From an uncultured Bryobacterales bacterium (GTDB lineage Bacteria; Acidobacteriota; Terriglobia; Bryobacterales; Bryobacteraceae): a stretch of 64,000 nucleotides of DNA. Each line of letters starts with the position of its first letter. Positions within the stretch are counted from its first letter, which is position 1. Positions 38,541-45,495 of this stretch are shown piece by piece. The notes under the pieces were generated by a model, which ran no database searches, had not been told where the DNA came from, and worked only from the letters and a program-made list of their open reading frames with translations. Location of the stretch: contig CALMAV010000178.1 of NCBI GenBank assembly GCA_937859895.1, positions 678 to 64,677 of the forward strand. The letters are read 5' to 3'. The translations under genes were made by a program, and so were the position numbers.

Positions 38541-39110
38541 TTATCCAACCAGACGCTGATGTAGTTCTGAAAGCAATCGATCACGATTGATAACAGTGAC
38601 ACTTCCTTCAGGTGCATTGCTAAGGTAAACCACTAAATTCTTACCATGACCGGTGGCGGATCGAAACATAAGACTTTCTATGCCTTCACTAATCCAGCTG
38701 TCAGCCACTTGCTGAGATGCACTGTGATCGCCCGGCTGAGAACACGCTGTAATTACTGAATCTAAGTCGCTCGGCAGGCCGCCGGAGAGATCTAGGTGTT
38801 TGTCTGTTTTGATGTTCAAAGCATAGGTCATGCGAGGATATTCAAGGAAGTCTATTTCCGAGTTGCCTTTCAGCATCAGCTGCCTCGCCCTAACCTCCTG
38901 CACTGCTGTGGACTCGTCTACGCTTCCAAATACCGCTGATACGCCAATAGGGACGAAGCGACCGCCGTATCGTCGCGTCCCTTCACCACTGATCACGTCG
39001 TCTGGATGGAAGTACTGATACGCCACCGAGCGAAAGACTGTCGCTTCCAATGGTTGCGCGTGAGTTATACGATAGTCTAGTTGCTCACGAGCATCAAGAC
39101 TCAGGTTCAA
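38541..39110 (-). CDS. RES-domain toxin (189 aa)
   Basis: GTRRYGGRFVPIGVSAVFGSVDESTAVQEV is a typical RES-domain core. The upstream Xre-type antitoxin stop overlaps this gene's start by 4 nt. Confidence 0.8.
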   Translation of the reverse strand: MNLSLDAREQLDYRITHAQPLEATVFRSVAYQYFHPDDVISGEGTRRYGGRFVPIGVSAVFGSVDESTAVQEVRARQLMLKGNSEIDFLEYPRMTYALNIKTDKHLDLSGGLPSDLDSVITACSQPGDHSASQQVADSWISEGIESLMFRSATGHGKNLVVYLSNAPEGSVTVINRDRLLSELHQRLVG

Positions 39111-39793
39111 ATTGCATCACCTGCCTGAAGCCGCTGAAACTCGTGAATGATGTCCCTAGCCCTGCCATCCAGGATCAGATCTTTCGGGCGTTCACCACCG
39201 AAGGAAGCATTTTCTGAAACAAGCCACTGTGGAATCTGCGCTTCCGGGACAGAAGTTGAAAGCAGAAATGAGAGCTCCTCTAGATCACGTAATTGATGCC
39301 GCCCCCTTGCTATTCTCAGCTGCTCCCAGTTTTGAATGGTTCGGAGACTGACTCCTAAGGCCCGACCCATCTCAGTTTGTGTCAACCCAAGGCACGTCCG
39401 AATTCCGAGAAGGCGATTTTCTACGTCATTCCTGTGCCTGCCATGATGAGGAACCTGCAAGGCATGCAGTGCAGCAGTGGCCTCGAACACCAGCTCTGTA
39501 TGCCGCGGTCGAACTTCTCCTATGAGGCGGCCGAGGCGCGCAGCTTCTTCCAACGCCGTGTGATGCTGGGCGCAGTACACCACCACGTTTACAGTGCGTC
39601 GTAGCTCTTTGAGCAGAGAGGAAACGTCATCTTCGTCTGAGTGACCTACGTACACGAGAACTGAGTGAGCGGAAGCGTTCCGATCAACTCTATCGAATGT
39701 CCGGAGCTCGGCATGTTGAAGACATTTCTGCGCGAATTGGCCAGCTTCGGCCAAGTTCTGCTCATTCGAGTAGACAAGAATATCTTCGCCCAT
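39107..39793 (-). CDS. Xre/MbcA/ParS-type antitoxin with an extra ~120-aa N-terminal region (228 aa)
   Basis: HTH LGLTQTEMGRALGVSLRTIQNWEQ, then a DUF2384-like toxin-binding tail WLVSENASFGGERPKDLILDGRARDIIHEFQRLQAG. The N-terminal 120 aa are unassigned. Confidence 0.75.
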   Translation of the reverse strand: MGEDILVYSNEQNLAEAGQFAQKCLQHAELRTFDRVDRNASAHSVLVYVGHSDEDDVSSLLKELRRTVNVVVYCAQHHTALEEAARLGRLIGEVRPRHTELVFEATAALHALQVPHHGRHRNDVENRLLGIRTCLGLTQTEMGRALGVSLRTIQNWEQLRIARGRHQLRDLEELSFLLSTSVPEAQIPQWLVSENASFGGERPKDLILDGRARDIIHEFQRLQAGDAI

Positions 39794-39974: not shown

Positions 39975-41108
39975 ATGCCGAGATTAACTTTTTACCCGCT
40001 CGGTAATGCCGATTGCTGCCTAGTTGGACTGGTAGACGGCACTCAAATCTTGTTCGATTACGCTGCTACGCGAGATTCGAACAATAAACAAGACAAACGG
40101 ATCGATTTAGCCGTCGAGCTAAGGCGCGATCTAAAGAAGGCCAAACGCGACAGTTTTCGTGCAGTGGTCTTTACTCACCTCGACAACGATCATGTGAAGG
40201 GTGCTCAAGATTTCTTTTTCTTAGACCATGCCGAGTGTTATCAGAAAGGCGATCGGTTCAAGATTGAAGAGCTCTGGGTACCCGCAGCAGCAATCATTGA
40301 GGAAGGGTGTGAAGATGACGCCCGGATCGTCCGCGCAGAAGCGCGACATCGTTTAAAGAAAGGGTACGGAATCCGAGTTTTCTCCCGGCCTGAGAAGTTA
40401 AAGATGTGGCTTGAGGATCAAGGCATACCGTTTGACTCTCGGAAACATCTTTTCGTTGATGCCGGCCAGCTGGTGCCATCGTTCAGCATCCCTACAGATG
40501 GAGTTGAGTTCTTCGTTCATTCACCGTTTGCATCCCGCCTTAACGACACAGAAGTAGTTGATAGAAATATCGATTCGATCTTTATTCAGGCTGTTTTCGC
40601 GGTCGAAGCGAAAACAACAAACGTCATTTTGGGGTCGGATCTCCCTTACGAGGCCCTAGCTGAAATAGTCAAGATTACGAAAGCAAGAGGGCGCGCGAGC
40701 CGGCTCGAGTGGGACGTATTCAAAATGCCGCACCACTGTAGCTATAAGTCAATCGGTCCAGATCGTGGAGCTGAGAAGGCAAAACCAACGGAAGAGACAA
40801 AGTGGCTGTTCGAAGAGCAAGCTCTTCCAGGTGCGATTTTGATTTCTACTAGCGACCTCATTCCGGCAAAGGGCTCCGAAGCAGACAAAGGGAAGCAGCC
40901 TCCACACCGACAGGCGTACAACTATCACAAAGGGCACATAGACGACAACTCCGGAGAGCTGCACGTAACGATGCAGCATCCGAAAATTACTGCACCCGAG
41001 CGACTGACCATTGAAATTGACAATACAAAAGCCCGAGTGGTGAAGGGCGGTTCGAGCGGGGTACAAATCATCACCTCGCAATCTGCTCCGCGCGCCGGAA
41101 CTATCTAG
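39975..41108 (+). CDS. Metallo-beta-lactamase-fold protein (377 aa), partner of the E2-E1-JAB fusion
   Basis: LTFYPLGNADCCLV (beta-strand plus Asp), VVFTHLDNDHVKGA (HxHxDH-like metal motif, here H-L-D-N-D-H), FFVHSP, ILGSDL and FKMPHHCSY (ComEC/MBL-like late His motif). The C-terminal tail is ...ARVVKGGSSGVQIITSQSAPRAGTI. Confidence 0.75.
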   Translation: MPRLTFYPLGNADCCLVGLVDGTQILFDYAATRDSNNKQDKRIDLAVELRRDLKKAKRDSFRAVVFTHLDNDHVKGAQDFFFLDHAECYQKGDRFKIEELWVPAAAIIEEGCEDDARIVRAEARHRLKKGYGIRVFSRPEKLKMWLEDQGIPFDSRKHLFVDAGQLVPSFSIPTDGVEFFVHSPFASRLNDTEVVDRNIDSIFIQAVFAVEAKTTNVILGSDLPYEALAEIVKITKARGRASRLEWDVFKMPHHCSYKSIGPDRGAEKAKPTEETKWLFEEQALPGAILISTSDLIPAKGSEADKGKQPPHRQAYNYHKGHIDDNSGELHVTMQHPKITAPERLTIEIDNTKARVVKGGSSGVQIITSQSAPRAGTI

Positions 41109-43335
41109 TGTTCCTTGAAATTCCTGGCGAACGGGTGCTTGCCGAAGCGCTCACGATTTCTAAAGCGGCAGATCTGGGCCAGTTCTTGCTGGCCCAAGTC
41201 AGCCCATACGCTCGCCTTGTGGACTGTTCTCACAAACTCCGGAGAACACCGAAACAGTCGTCGTAGATCTCGATGTTGAGGTTGGACAGCAGCCAATTCA
41301 CCCAATCCAAAAAACGGAACGTGTCGCGATTACATTCCGATCTGAAGACATTTCCTACCCTGAGATCGTTTCACTGCGGCCGGATTTCCCTAGTGTTCCT
41401 CATCTCAATCCCAAGGATGCAGAGTTTCCTCGCAGCCTATGTCTATTCGAAGAACCCTACTCTCAAGTCGGAATCTCCTGGACATCGGCACGGCTCATCC
41501 ACCGACTCCGAAGTTGGCTGCGTGAAACGGCCCGCGGCGCATTGCATCAACTCGATCAGCCTTTAGAGCCTATTCTCCTGCCCGGTTCGCGACATTTAAT
41601 TGTTCCTTCAGACCTCTTTTCCAACCTGGACGAACAGCCAGAACAATTGATCGTTGAACTCGTTACGTTTCCTCCACATGAAACCCTGATTACCAGGCGC
41701 ATAAATAATAATTCCGGGGAACAAGCATCGTCTGTTCCATTCGCCGCAATCACCTTCCGTTGTCCTCCTCAGACGCATGGCGTAGTCAGGCTACTTCCAA
41801 AAAATTTAGAGATACTGCACCAGCTAGTCCAAGCGAGCGGCCTGGACCTTATCCACTTCGTCCGAGACCGACTCCGAAATTGGAGTCCAAAAGCCTTACC
41901 GCGAGATGCTCGTCTTATCCTAATCGGTCATTTCCCCAAAATGCGTGATTCTACCTCTCACCCTGAGGTTTCGGACATTTGGGGATTTGTGACGTTGTCA
42001 ACGATCAAAGAGATCGGATGCGCTGTTGGTGCCTGGAGTGCTGATGGCAACTCGGTGGGTGCCCTTATTGGGGGTCAGGTTGATCTGGAGAAATCCCGAT
42101 CCGTTGAGATTCACGTTCTAAATGTTCACTTCGCATTGTCGCGCTCGCAAGCCGCTGAACTGAACGGTCTACAACCTGATGAGACTGCGATTGTTGCAAT
42201 CGGTCTAGGCGCACTAGGATCGCAAGTCGTTCCGAAGCTGATCCGATCTGGTTTCGGCCAGTGGCGATTCCTTGATGAAGATATAGTGCTTCCGCATAAT
42301 CTCGCACGATATGAGCTGTCAAGCCACGCTGTAGGACACCCAAAAGCTCTTGTGTGTCGCTCCGTCTTCAACCACATTTTAGAGAGACCAACCGTCGATG
42401 ATGCCCTAGTCGTGGACGTATTGCAATCTAAAGACAAGCACGAGCGGCTTCGGTCAATGCTGGCGGAATCTGAGCTTGTCGTAGATCTCTCAGCATCGGT
42501 CCCTGTTGCGCGTTCGTTAGCACGTGACTTTGATGCACCGGCGAGGAGAATCTCGGCCTTCTTAAACCCTTCCGGTAAAGATTTGGTTGTATTAGCCGAA
42601 GATGAGAAAAGGAACGTCCGCCTCGACTGGTTGGAAATGCAGTATTACCGGGAGTTGCTCTCGCGAACCGAATTCGCAGACCACCTGGTTGTCAATGAGG
42701 CCGGTGGACTGAGGTACGCACGAAGTTGCCGAGATCTCACGGCTCGAATCCCCGAAGACTTGGTCGGCTTACACTCAGCGATAGCGTCCAGAGCAATTCG
42801 GCAAGTAAAGGCCAAACCAGAGGCCGTACTTTGCTTTTGGAAGAGTCACTCCGACCTAAGTGTTGAATCTCTTCGAGTGGAAGGAAGCGCCGTTTTTGAG
42901 CAGCAACTAGGCAACTGGCTCCTTTGCACTGATTCCGTTTTGCTCGCAAAGCTCGCATCGCATCGTCTCGCCCGTCTCCCTAGAGAGACCGGCGGTGTGA
43001 TGATCGGCTCCCACGACTTTCAAAGACAGATCGTGTATGTGGTGGACTTGATTCCCTCGCCCCCAGACAGTGAAGAGTGGCCGACGCTTTACATTCGTGG
43101 GTACGAACAATTGGCAGACTACCTGGGCGAGGTAAGCGCGCGAACTGCGGGCATGCTTCACTATGTGGGCGAGTGGCATTCTCATCCGAACGGAAGCAGC
43201 ACTCAGCCCAGCCGTGATGACCGAAAGGTCTTCGCTTGGCTCGAAACGTATATGAAAAGTGATGGCTTGCCGCCGCTTATGGCCATCGTTGGCGACATCG
43301 ATGTTTCCTGGTATCTTGGGACGCTGAGTGGATAA
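41108..43335 (+). CDS. E2(UBC-like)-E1(ThiF-like)-JAB/MPN triple-domain protein, interrupted by a -1 frameshift near 41240
   Basis: GTG 41108 overlaps the MBL stop (TAGTG). Frame 2 gives MFLEIPGERVLAEALTISKAADLGQFLLAQVSPYARLVDCSHKL and stops at 41264-41266. Frame 1 is open from 41164 and gives ENTETVVVDLDVEVGQQPIHPIQKTERVAITFRSEDISYPEIVSLRPDFPSVPHLNPKDAEFPRSLCLFEEPY (E2-like, Cys codon 41440-41442). Next come IVAIGLGALGSQVV...FLDEDIVLPHNLARY (E1 Rossmann, 42190-42300). The JAB motifs are RETGGVMIG (Glu 42985-42987) and HSHPNGSSTQPSRDD (43177 onward). Total length is 2228 nt, which is 3n-1. Confidence 0.8.
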
Positions 43336-43346
43336 GCGAGTCGGCG

Positions 43347-44018
43347 CTAAGGTTTGGCAGAAGCCGTTACCTTAGCATCATCAACAGCATTCTCGGCGAC
43401 TTGCAAAATTTCTCGGACGTAATAAAACGCTCGTTGTCGGCATCGGTTCCAAAATAAGAGAAACATGGCCGTAACTGGAATTACCAGCAAAACCAATGTT
43501 GATTTTGGCCGAGTGGACAACGTTCCTACAAAAGCGGAGGCTTCGGTCACGAACAGCGCGATTAAAGAGAGAACAATCAGAGCTCGATGGTAGGCGTAGA
43601 GGGCGTTGAACTTCGTCGCCCGGATAGAACCTTTTTTCTCGGCAAGTTGCATTGCGAGACGGAACAGCGCTTCGGTACTTGCATCCGCACCAAGGTTGCT
43701 GGTCAGCTTCGCTCGAACTCTTTTGGCTTCCGCTGCCGACCAGTAACGTTCTCCCAGGCCATTCGTCAGAGCAAGCGTAGACGGCTTTCCACCCCAGCTT
43801 TTAAAAAGCAATGGCTCCAAAGAACTTGATAGAGCTTGAACAATTTGGCCGATCAAAATGCCGAGTGCGGTAAACGCAAGAGCATTCAGGGTGTCGCCCA
43901 TTTTCGGAACAAGAGATAGAACATTTGGGAAGCAGAAAACGCAAATGTACGTGACCAGGATGCCCGGAACCAAAATCGCCAGGACATCATACAATTCGAA
44001 CTTGTCAGTCATAGTCAA
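43347..44018 (-). CDS. Hypothetical integral membrane protein (223 aa, about 4-5 TM helices)
   Basis: Hydrophobic helices VLAILVPGILVTYICVFCF, LNALAFTALGILIGQIVQAL, ALIVLSLIALFVTEASAFVG and LVLLVIPVTAMFLLFW. It is convergent with the E2-E1-JAB gene, with an 11-nt gap. Confidence 0.6.
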   Translation of the reverse strand: MTMTDKFELYDVLAILVPGILVTYICVFCFPNVLSLVPKMGDTLNALAFTALGILIGQIVQALSSSLEPLLFKSWGGKPSTLALTNGLGERYWSAAEAKRVRAKLTSNLGADASTEALFRLAMQLAEKKGSIRATKFNALYAYHRALIVLSLIALFVTEASAFVGTLSTRPKSTLVLLVIPVTAMFLLFWNRCRQRAFYYVREILQVAENAVDDAKVTASAKP

Positions 44019-44488: not shown

Positions 44489-45495
44489 CTAATAGGAGAT
44501 CCGCTCCACCTCGTCGAAGGAAATCTCATCCCCGCATCGGTTATAGAGCCCAGTGGTCCGGGAACTCTCGTGACCGGCCATTTGCTGGGCGACCTTGAGA
44601 CGGCCGCCATTCTGCAAATAATTCGTGATCCCCGTTGCCCGGAACTGTGACAACCGATCTTGGTTTGGATCCCTGCCTGCCGGCAGCGCCGCCGGATCAT
44701 TATGGACATTGGACTGGTTCAGGGGCCGGGCTGCAGTTGTCCCTGCCGCCAGGCACAGAACAATTGGAAGCTGCCCTTTCCTGCCAAGCCAGAGGCGGAG
44801 AGGTATTCCTCTAAATACTGCTCCAACGTGTGGTGACAAGGGATCTCCGACACCTTGCCGCCCTTCTCGCGCAGCCGAAGCCAGCCGCGGCGGCGCTGGA
44901 CGTAGTAGTCTTCGACTTCCAAGCTGAAGACTGTTCCAATCCGGGCAAAGGTGTAGGCTATGACACCGAGCAGGGCCCGATCGCGCAGGCGCAGGACCGT
45001 ATCTGTCGGAAGGCTGCCAGGAACTCGCCCATCTCTTCGCTCGAAAGCACCGGGGTCTTGCCCCGCTCGACGGTATGCTTCGGCCCGCGGACGGAGGCGG
45101 CCGGGTTGACTGGCAGGAACTGGCCGAGGATCATCCGGTCGAAGAGCATCGGGACGGCCGCCAGATGTTGCTTCACTATGAGCCGGGAGCGAGCCCGGCC
45201 GGAGTCCTGCACCCAAGCTGCCACAGGGATCGGCTCCACTAAGGTGAACTCCTCGATGCCGCGCCGCTGGCACCAGGCGGAGAACTGCCAGTCGGCGCCA
45301 TAACAACCGCGCCTGGTATTCGGGTTCGGGATCTGAGCGGTGAAGAACTCCCAAAGCGTTTGGCCGTTCGCGCATTTTGCAGGAAGAGGTGGGGCCGAGC
45401 CGTTCGACTTCCCTGTCCTCGACGTCCGGGGTAAATGCCGAGCCCGCGACCGCCGGAAGCGGGACGAGGGGACCAGGGTCAGGCGTGGACCTCAT
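44489..45495 (-). pseudogene. Frameshifted tyrosine integrase, paralog of 2112..3080
   Basis: Three minus-strand frames are colinear with the intact paralog. First: WEFFTAQIPNPNTRRGCYGADWQFSAWCQRRGI...VKQHLAAVPMLFDRMILGQFLPVNPAASVRGPKH...PVLSSEEMGEFL. Second: LRLRDRALLGVIAYTFARIGTVFSLEVEDYY...REKGGKVSEIPCHHTLEQYLEEYL. Third: FRATGITNYLQNGGRLKVAQQMAGHESSRTTGLYNR. There are at least two frameshifts. Confidence 0.8.

What the first reader, a model, noticed from the sequence alone, without database searches (positions are those of the whole stretch)
41108..41545. The E2 domain is invisible in the ORF track: about 145 codons upstream of the annotated TTG start, split by a -1 frameshift
The ORF track starts the E1-JAB protein at TTG 41542. 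Yet the same frame is open back to 41164 and contains no ATG, GTG or TTG at all. This stretch translates to a convincing UBC-like fold pattern, with beta-strands VVVDLDVEV and ERVAITF followed by PSVPHLNPKDAEFPRSLCLFEEPYSQV...LIHRLRSWL. A 52-codon ORF in the adjacent frame starts at GTG 41108, overlapping the MBL stop. It reads MFLEIPGERVLAEALTISKAADLGQFLLAQVSPYARLVDCSHKL and stops at 41264-41266. Joining the two frames near 41238-41242 (..CAC AAA CTC C|CG GAG AAC..) gives a continuous 742-aa E2-E1-JAB protein. The total length of 2228 nt (3n-1) fits a 1-nt deletion. There are three possible explanations: a recent inactivating mutation, a sequencing or assembly indel, or programmed -1 frameshifting. 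No canonical X XXY YYZ slippery heptamer is evident, so I consider programmed frameshifting least likely. If the frameshift is real, the cell would make an E1-JAB lacking the E2, or nothing at all.
Basis: seen in the sequence. Interest (0 to 1): 0.6.

Follow-up and report, generated by a model that had tools for sequence, protein, structure and literature searches.

The report
Frameshift-broken E2-E1-JAB defence gene
A bacterial ubiquitin-like conjugation gene (E2-E1-JAB, partner of a metallo-beta-lactamase-fold enzyme) has lost one T, which cuts off its start and splits its E2 domain; this looks like an ordinary recent gene-killing mutation in a known type of operon.

Summary
Frame 1 is open from 41164 and has no ATG, GTG or TTG before TTG 41542. 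It carries a Pfam Prok-E2_A domain (E 1e-23) that lacks only the first ~26 profile positions. Those positions lie in the 52-codon GTG 41108 ORF, which matches residues 1-40 of an intact 742-aa homologue (P0003, E 1e-16).

Read through with X at the break, the gene is 742 aa. It aligns to P0003 without gaps (81% identity) and keeps all 87 family-invariant residues.

The lesion is a single missing T in a T run: the window has TGTTC at 41225-41229, and a ~93%-identical contig from another study has TGTTTC.

Logan contigs from two runs of two different studies reproduce the window exactly across the site, so the allele is in the reads. Both runs may be source data.

Programmed frameshifting is rejected. 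There is no slippery heptamer, no homopolymer, no downstream structure, and 80 of 82 related loci have one continuous frame.

The locus is the known two-gene "6a"/"MBL pathway" operon related to Type II CBASS (Iyer 2006). It sits in a mobile island and was not found in 24 same-genus species. Most likely reading: a recent inactivating deletion. Low interest.

The parts
39975..41108 (+). MBL-fold gene (377 aa), first gene of the two-gene operon. It is intact, has an HxDxDH-type motif (THLDNDH), and ends ..SAPRAG-TI.
   Evidence: Translation. Weak Pfam Lactamase_B hits; PADLOC MBL-type effector models RTasMBL, LmuA and Avs1a. 86% identical, without gaps, to P0122, which is listed with the same longest-contig length (11,420 bp) as P0003. 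An MBL gene sits directly upstream of E2-E1-JAB in 79/79 related loci that have upstream DNA.
41108..41266 (+). N-terminal fragment of the E2-E1-JAB gene. GTG start overlaps the MBL stop. Codons 1-40 (41108-41227) are homologous to the family N-terminus; codons 41-52 are out-of-frame read-on ending at TAG 41264-41266.
   Evidence: BLASTP against P0003 residues 1-40, E 1e-16. The family N-terminal motifs ..PGE.. and ..KA.. are present.
41227..41228 (+). Site of the 1-nt deletion. The window has a TT run in GGACTGTTC where an intact relative has TTT (GGACTGTTTC = ..D C F..).
   Evidence: The X4 contig piece aligns from 41227 onward. Its 30-nt loose end matches 41198-41227, so base 41227 is used twice and the relative has one extra T. 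P0003 reads ..ECF.. at the same place.
41227..43335 (+). Remainder of the E2-E1-JAB gene in frame 1: E2 (Prok-E2_A, catalytic ..HLN..SLC..), E1/ThiF adenylation domain and JAB peptidase (..EWHSHP..), then the stop.
   Evidence: Pfam PF14457, PF00899 and PF14464. PADLOC CBASS E1-E2 and JAB models. 82% identity to P0003 from residue 41. 87/87 invariant family columns kept.
41542..43335 (+). The ORF as gene callers see it (TTG start, 597 aa). It begins at the end of the E2 domain, and there is no evidence that this start is used.
   Evidence: ORF list. The identical 597-aa product is in the protein collection as P0002. No homologue among the top 120 hits is this short apart from the window's own.

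Best explanation
The locus is a two-gene 'MBL pathway' operon (Iyer et al. 2006 type 6a, a relative of Type II CBASS). It comprises an MBL-fold enzyme gene followed by a translationally coupled gene for a triple-domain E2-E1-JAB protein.

In this organism the second gene has lost one T from a TTT run (TGTTTC to TGTTC, 41225-41229) at codon 41. Ribosomes starting at GTG 41108 therefore read 40 correct residues, then 12 wrong ones, and stop at TAG 41264. The rest of the gene has no canonical start codon until TTG 41542, beyond the E2 domain.

The most likely result is loss of the conjugation enzyme, that is, a very recent pseudogene. This leaves the MBL enzyme without its priming and processing partner.

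Shown here: the frames, the homology on both sides of the break, the position and size of the indel, its presence in read-derived contigs, and the lack of any other damage. Inferred: that no functional product is made, and that the operon acts in phage defence by conjugating the MBL protein through its C-terminal glycine.
For: - The frames and stops are as described.
- Prok-E2_A, ThiF and Prok-JAB lie in frame 1, with the first ~26 E2 profile positions missing. Those residues are encoded in frame 2 from GTG 41108.
- The read-through with X at the break is 742 aa, aligns without gaps to the 742-aa P0003 at 602/742 identity, and keeps 87/87 invariant columns.
- Logan contigs of runs X1 (2019, study P1) and X2 (2022, study P2) cover 40780-41800 with 0 differences and 0 gaps. 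Neither contig breaks at the site.
- A ~93%-identical contig from a further study (X4) carries the extra T that restores the frame.
- The partner MBL gene is intact and about as diverged from the same relative (86%) as the broken gene (81-83%), so there has been no long period of decay.
- Context is a mobile or accessory island: an Xre-RES toxin-antitoxin pair and tyrosine recombinases nearby, one of which also looks frameshifted. The gene was not found in 24 same-genus species.
- The operon type is described in PMC1779556 and named 'MBL pathway/operon related to Type II CBASS' in PMC11601596 and PMC13373217.
Against: - X1 and X2 may be the very samples the genome was assembled from. They exclude an assembler artefact but not a systematic read error.
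- Depth is low (word depth ~6-7).
- The extra T in the relative rests on one contig of depth 2.6.
- No raw-read pile-up, RNA or protein data could be examined.
- A second frameshift-like split 3.5 kb away could mean an indel-prone assembly rather than a decaying island.
- Loss of function is inferred, not shown.
Confidence: 0.8

Rival explanations
1. Sequencing or assembly indel. The organism has an intact TTT and a whole 742-aa gene, and the missing T is an error in the consensus.
For: - The genome is a fragmented metagenome-assembled genome: 616 contigs, 73.6% complete.
- Local word depth is only ~6-7.
- A second frameshift-like split lies nearby in a recombinase gene.
- Every other feature of the gene is intact.
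Against: - An independent assembler (Logan) gives the identical sequence in two runs of different size, year and study. There are no gaps, no differences and no contig break at the site.
- A 2- versus 3-base run is not a typical indel-error context, and no homopolymer of 4 or more lies within 41100-41300.
Confidence: 0.13
2. The split is functional. Either a programmed -1 ribosomal frameshift (or re-initiation) yields the full protein, or a stand-alone E1-JAB from TTG 41542 works without the E2 domain.
For: - Both frames overlap for 100 nt (41164-41263), so a -1 shift anywhere there would restore the protein.
- All catalytic residues downstream are intact.
Against: - There is no X_XXY_YYZ heptamer in the zero frame and no homopolymer of 4 or more.
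- The downstream 120 nt fold no better than shuffles (z +0.61), and there is no Rfam match.
- The split is not conserved. The 83%-identical homologue and 80 of 82 related loci have one frame, and the two exceptions break elsewhere.
- The top 119 homologues are 710-785 aa.
- Frame 1 has only near-cognate start codons before 41542.
Confidence: 0.04

Closest known systems
Operon type '6a' of Iyer, Burroughs & Aravind 2006 (PMC1779556), called 'MBL pathway/operon related to Type II CBASS' by the Corbett laboratory (PMC11601596, PMC13373217)
   Same: Two genes: a specialised MBL-fold protein and a triple-module E2-E1-JAB protein in that domain order. They are adjacent and on the same strand, with overlapping stop and start. 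The MBL C-terminus carries the family's conserved ..PRAG glycine.
   Different: Here the triple-module gene is interrupted at codon 41 by a 1-nt deletion. Relatives have one uninterrupted ORF of 710-785 aa.
Type II CBASS Cap2 (E2-E1) with Cap3 (JAB), e.g. PDB 7TO3
   Same: The same Prok-E2_A and ThiF-type E1 domains and the same JAB peptidase type. The best PADLOC matches are the CBASS E1-E2 and JAB models, and the closest solved structures are Cap2. By analogy, the partner enzyme's C-terminus is the conjugated end.
   Different: There is no CD-NTase and no cyclic-nucleotide effector. The partner is an MBL-fold enzyme, and JAB is fused to E2-E1 rather than being a separate gene. Sequence similarity to Cap2 is weak (E ~3e-5 over the E1 core only).
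Frameshift pseudogenes of accessory or defence genes in bacterial genomes
   Same: A single-base indel in a short run, an otherwise intact gene, and a location in a mobile island absent from sister species.
   Different: Nothing notable. This is the ordinary case.

Membership tests
Type 6a / MBL-pathway operon (MBL + E2-E1-JAB) | Triple-module protein with E2, E1 and JAB domains in that order | tested here: met
   Pfam PF14457 (res 24-151), PF00899 (341-443) and PF14464 (593-711) on the frame-1 read. The N-terminal 40 residues are supplied by the frame-2 ORF.
Type 6a / MBL-pathway operon (MBL + E2-E1-JAB) | Adjacent gene for a specialised MBL-fold protein | tested here: met
   The gene at 39975-41108 is 42-55% identical to the gene directly upstream of E2-E1-JAB in 79/79 related loci. 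It gives weak Lactamase_B hits and matches PADLOC MBL effector models.
Type 6a / MBL-pathway operon (MBL + E2-E1-JAB) | Conserved catalytic residues (E2 His/Cys, E1 motifs, JAB ExnHxH..S..D) | tested here: met
   87 of 87 invariant alignment columns are kept, including H99, C112, C541, E689, H691, H693, S702 and D705 in P0003 numbering.
Type 6a / MBL-pathway operon (MBL + E2-E1-JAB) | E2-E1-JAB encoded as one uninterrupted reading frame | tested here: not met
   The frame changes at 41227-41228, the upstream ORF stops at 41264-41266, and frame 1 has no canonical start before 41542. The locus is a broken member of the family.
Type 6a / MBL-pathway operon (MBL + E2-E1-JAB) | Protein conjugation of the MBL enzyme and anti-phage activity | not testable with these tools
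   Only statements in the literature (PMC11601596) and the conserved C-terminal Gly of the MBL proteins bear on this.
Programmed -1 ribosomal frameshift site | Slippery heptamer X_XXY_YYZ in the zero frame | tested here: not met
   None in 41108-41264, and no homopolymer of 4 or more in 41100-41300.
Programmed -1 ribosomal frameshift site | Stable stimulatory structure downstream | tested here: not met
   41228-41347: MFE -22.6 kcal/mol against a shuffle mean of -24.8, z +0.61. No Rfam family matches.
Programmed -1 ribosomal frameshift site | The frameshift is conserved among relatives | tested here: not met
   P0003 (83% identity) and 80/82 loci have a single frame. L013 and L062 are split at other positions.

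The most novel reading that the evidence does not exclude
The TT/TTT difference could be a reversible on/off switch, or a tolerated split, of a costly MBL-type conjugation defence system. Cells carrying the TT allele would then either still make some full-length protein by non-canonical frameshifting or re-initiation, or run the MBL enzyme in an unprimed state that is selectively useful.
Probability: 0.03. Interest if true: 0.5.

Novelty: new member of a known kind. Interest (0 to 1): 0.15.

Why it matters
Mainly for annotation. Gene callers report a 597-aa 'E1-JAB' protein and miss the E2 domain, which could be misread as a new E2-less architecture. It is in fact a broken copy of the standard 742-aa protein.

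It also gives one example of a ubiquitin-like (CBASS-related) operon inactivated by a point indel in an environmental genome. That fits the rapid gain and loss expected of accessory defence genes.

The by-product has wider use. The strictly conserved C-terminal ..PR[AVM]G of the partner MBL proteins is the likely conjugation handle for this still poorly characterised pathway.

Tried and rejected
The DNA of the 83%-identical homologue P0003 could not be fetched for a nucleotide alignment, so the indel was located from a relative's contig in read laying instead.
- No RNA holder was listed by the look-up of sequencing runs, so nothing can be said about expression.
- Contigs of run X3 cover 41237-41391 only and do not reach the indel site.
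- A single-protein scan of genome contigs gave only 2 loci. A profile scan was needed.
- Programmed frameshifting was rejected: slippery-site scan, RNA fold, Rfam.
- I tried to gauge the assembly's general indel rate through rpoB and rpoC. rpoB was not found and rpoC is only a 272-aa fragment in this 73.6%-complete genome. This was uninformative, and the genome-wide frameshift rate remains unmeasured.
- The two recombinase genes downstream are not paralogues of each other.
- Several literature searches for an experimental paper dedicated to the MBL pathway found only passing mentions. Ledvina et al. 2023 was not held.
- The separate first-reader idea of a KGG handle at 41046-41051 was rejected because it is not conserved even in the 86%-identical orthologue.

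Full report
**1. Observation**

- The MBL gene (39975-41108) ends in TAG at 41106-41108.
- GTG 41108 shares that G and opens a 52-codon ORF that stops at TAG 41264-41266.
- The neighbouring frame has a TAA at 41161-41163 and is then open to the stop at 43333-43335.
- The first ATG, GTG or TTG in that frame is TTG 41542, which is why ORF callers report a 597-aa protein. That product is in the protein collection as P0002.
- 41108-43335 is 2228 nt, which is 3n-1.

**2. Both pieces belong to one gene**

- Pfam finds Prok-E2_A (PF14457, E 9.7e-24) at residues 24-151 of the frame-1 read, followed by ThiF and Prok-JAB. The E2 match starts at profile position 27 of 163, so the N-terminal part of the domain is missing from that frame.
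- A database search found 1511 relatives. The top 119 are 710-785 aa (median 749) and all carry the three domains.
- The 52-codon ORF matches P0003 residues 1-40 (E 1e-16). Frame 1 matches from residue 41 onward (82% over the E2 domain).
- Read through with X at the break, the window's gene is 742 aa and aligns to P0003 without a single gap (602/742 identical). It keeps all 87 invariant columns of a 27-sequence family alignment, including the E2 His and Cys, the E1 motifs and the JAB metal site.
- The frameshift is therefore the only visible lesion.

**3. Where the lesion is**

- P0003 reads ..ECF REA PEN... The window reads ..VDC in frame 2 (TGT 41225-41227) and F SQT PEN.. in frame 1 (TTC 41227-41229).
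- Laying Logan contigs on 40700-41800 showed a relative in run X4 (13 differences over 187 aligned nt, ~93% identity; an independent study). Its contig aligns from 41227 onward and has a 30-nt 'loose end' in front.
- That loose end matches the window at 41198-41227 with 3 mismatches, so base 41227 is used twice. The relative therefore reads GGACTGTTTC where the window reads GGACTGTTC.
- The lesion is the loss of one T from a TTT run at 41227-41228.
- Caveat: the X4 contig has a depth of only 2.6. However, an 'error' that exactly restores the family's frame and the conserved Cys-Phe is unlikely.

**4. Real allele or artefact**

- The genome is a fragmented metagenome-assembled genome: 4.38 Mb, 616 contigs, 73.6% complete.
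- Logan contigs of two runs reproduce the window over 40780-41800 with 0 differences and 0 gaps. The runs are X1 (2019, study P1) and X2 (2022, study P2), which differ in size and in contig lengths. Neither has a contig break at the site, which a co-existing intact allele of appreciable abundance would tend to cause.
- This rules out an artefact of the original assembler and shows that the allele dominates in the reads.
- Both runs are flagged as possible sources of the DNA, so they are not fully independent, and depth is low (~6-7).
- A TT/TTT context is not a typical indel-error context.
- I put a real mutation at about 0.8 and an artefact at about 0.13.
- I could not measure the genome-wide indel rate. 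rpoB and rpoC were absent or fragmentary.

**5. Programmed frameshifting**

This reading is rejected on four grounds.
- There is no X_XXY_YYZ heptamer in the zero frame and no homopolymer of 4 or more in 41100-41300.
- The 120 nt downstream fold no better than shuffled sequence (z +0.61), and there is no Rfam hit.
- The split is not conserved. In 82 loci from other genomes the gene is a single frame in 80, and the two exceptions (L013, L062) break at other positions.
- Frame 1 offers only near-cognate codons (CTG, ATT, ATC, ATA) before 41542.

**6. What the locus is**

- An MBL-fold gene lies directly upstream of the E2-E1-JAB gene in 79 of 79 related loci that include upstream DNA, across many phyla. 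Start and stop typically overlap or are separated by a few bases.
- This is the two-gene operon 'type 6a' of Iyer, Burroughs and Aravind (PMC1779556). It is now referred to as the 'MBL pathway/operon' related to Type II CBASS, in which a fused E2-E1 protein is said to conjugate the pathway's enzyme to targets (PMC11601596, PMC13373217).
- PADLOC's best matches are the CBASS E1-E2 and JAB models. The MBL protein matches MBL-type effector models of other defence systems.
- The closest solved structures are Cap2, at weak E-values. No structure matches the MBL protein by sequence.
- The locus sits between an Xre-RES toxin-antitoxin pair and tyrosine recombinase genes. It was not found in the 24 same-genus species searched, so it is accessory and probably mobile.

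**7. Consequence (inferred)**

- Translation from GTG 41108 gives a 52-residue peptide. The E2 core, E1 and JAB are not translated unless an unsupported internal start is used.
- The MBL gene is intact and as similar to its orthologue P0122 (86%) as the broken gene is to P0003 (81-83%). P0122 and P0003 are both listed with the same longest-contig length (11,420 bp), so they probably lie on one contig. The event is therefore recent.
- By analogy with Type II CBASS, loss of the E2-E1-JAB partner should abolish priming and processing of the MBL enzyme. The operon is probably inactive.

**8. Verdict**

The finding is a frameshift-broken copy of a known operon type, most likely a recent pseudogene. 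It matters for annotation: the '597-aa E1-JAB' is not a new architecture. Otherwise it is ordinary.

The scan's other notes on this window were consulted.
- The operon note agrees with what I found.
The conserved handle is the C-terminal ..PR[AVM]G.

Noticed in passing
window 41085-41108 (MBL C-terminus ..SAPRAG-TI); loci L012-L093: MBL proteins of this operon family carry a conserved C-terminal ..PR[AVM]G motif. 61 of 79 genomic loci and 64 of 119 database homologues end exactly at that Gly, and the rest have tails of 1-20 residues. Some tails end in a second RAG (L012, L037, L071, L074, L093). The window and its 86% orthologue have a 2-residue tail (TI / GI). This looks like the conjugation handle, with JAB trimming the tails. 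The KGG at 41046-41051 is not conserved (it is KAD in P0122).
   Followed up: partly
window 44489-45495 (-): A second frameshift-like split. A tyrosine recombinase catalytic domain (PF00589) is divided between ORF 44719-45495 (profile 20-105) and the overlapping ORF 44489-44839 in another frame (profile 128-167). The break lies between about 44656 and 44734. This is either island decay or a sign of indels in the assembly.
   Followed up: partly
window 40772-40779: Logan contigs of both runs X1 and X2 break at the same place inside the MBL gene, with pieces ending at 40771 and restarting at 40780. This suggests a branching point (strain variant or repeated word) there in both data sets.
   Followed up: no
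window 38541-39793 (-): An Xre-type antitoxin (HTH plus a weak Xre_MbcA_ParS_C match, 228 aa) and a RES-domain toxin (189 aa) lie directly upstream of the operon on the opposite strand, with a 4-nt overlap between them.
   Followed up: partly
L013, L062, L056, L091: A few other metagenome-assembled genomes also show frameshift-like or stop interruptions in the E2-E1-JAB gene or the MBL gene, at unrelated positions. That is roughly 5% of the 82 loci examined.
   Followed up: no
window 43347-44018 (-): A 223-aa ORF directly downstream of the operon, on the opposite strand, has no Pfam family above threshold.
   Followed up: no
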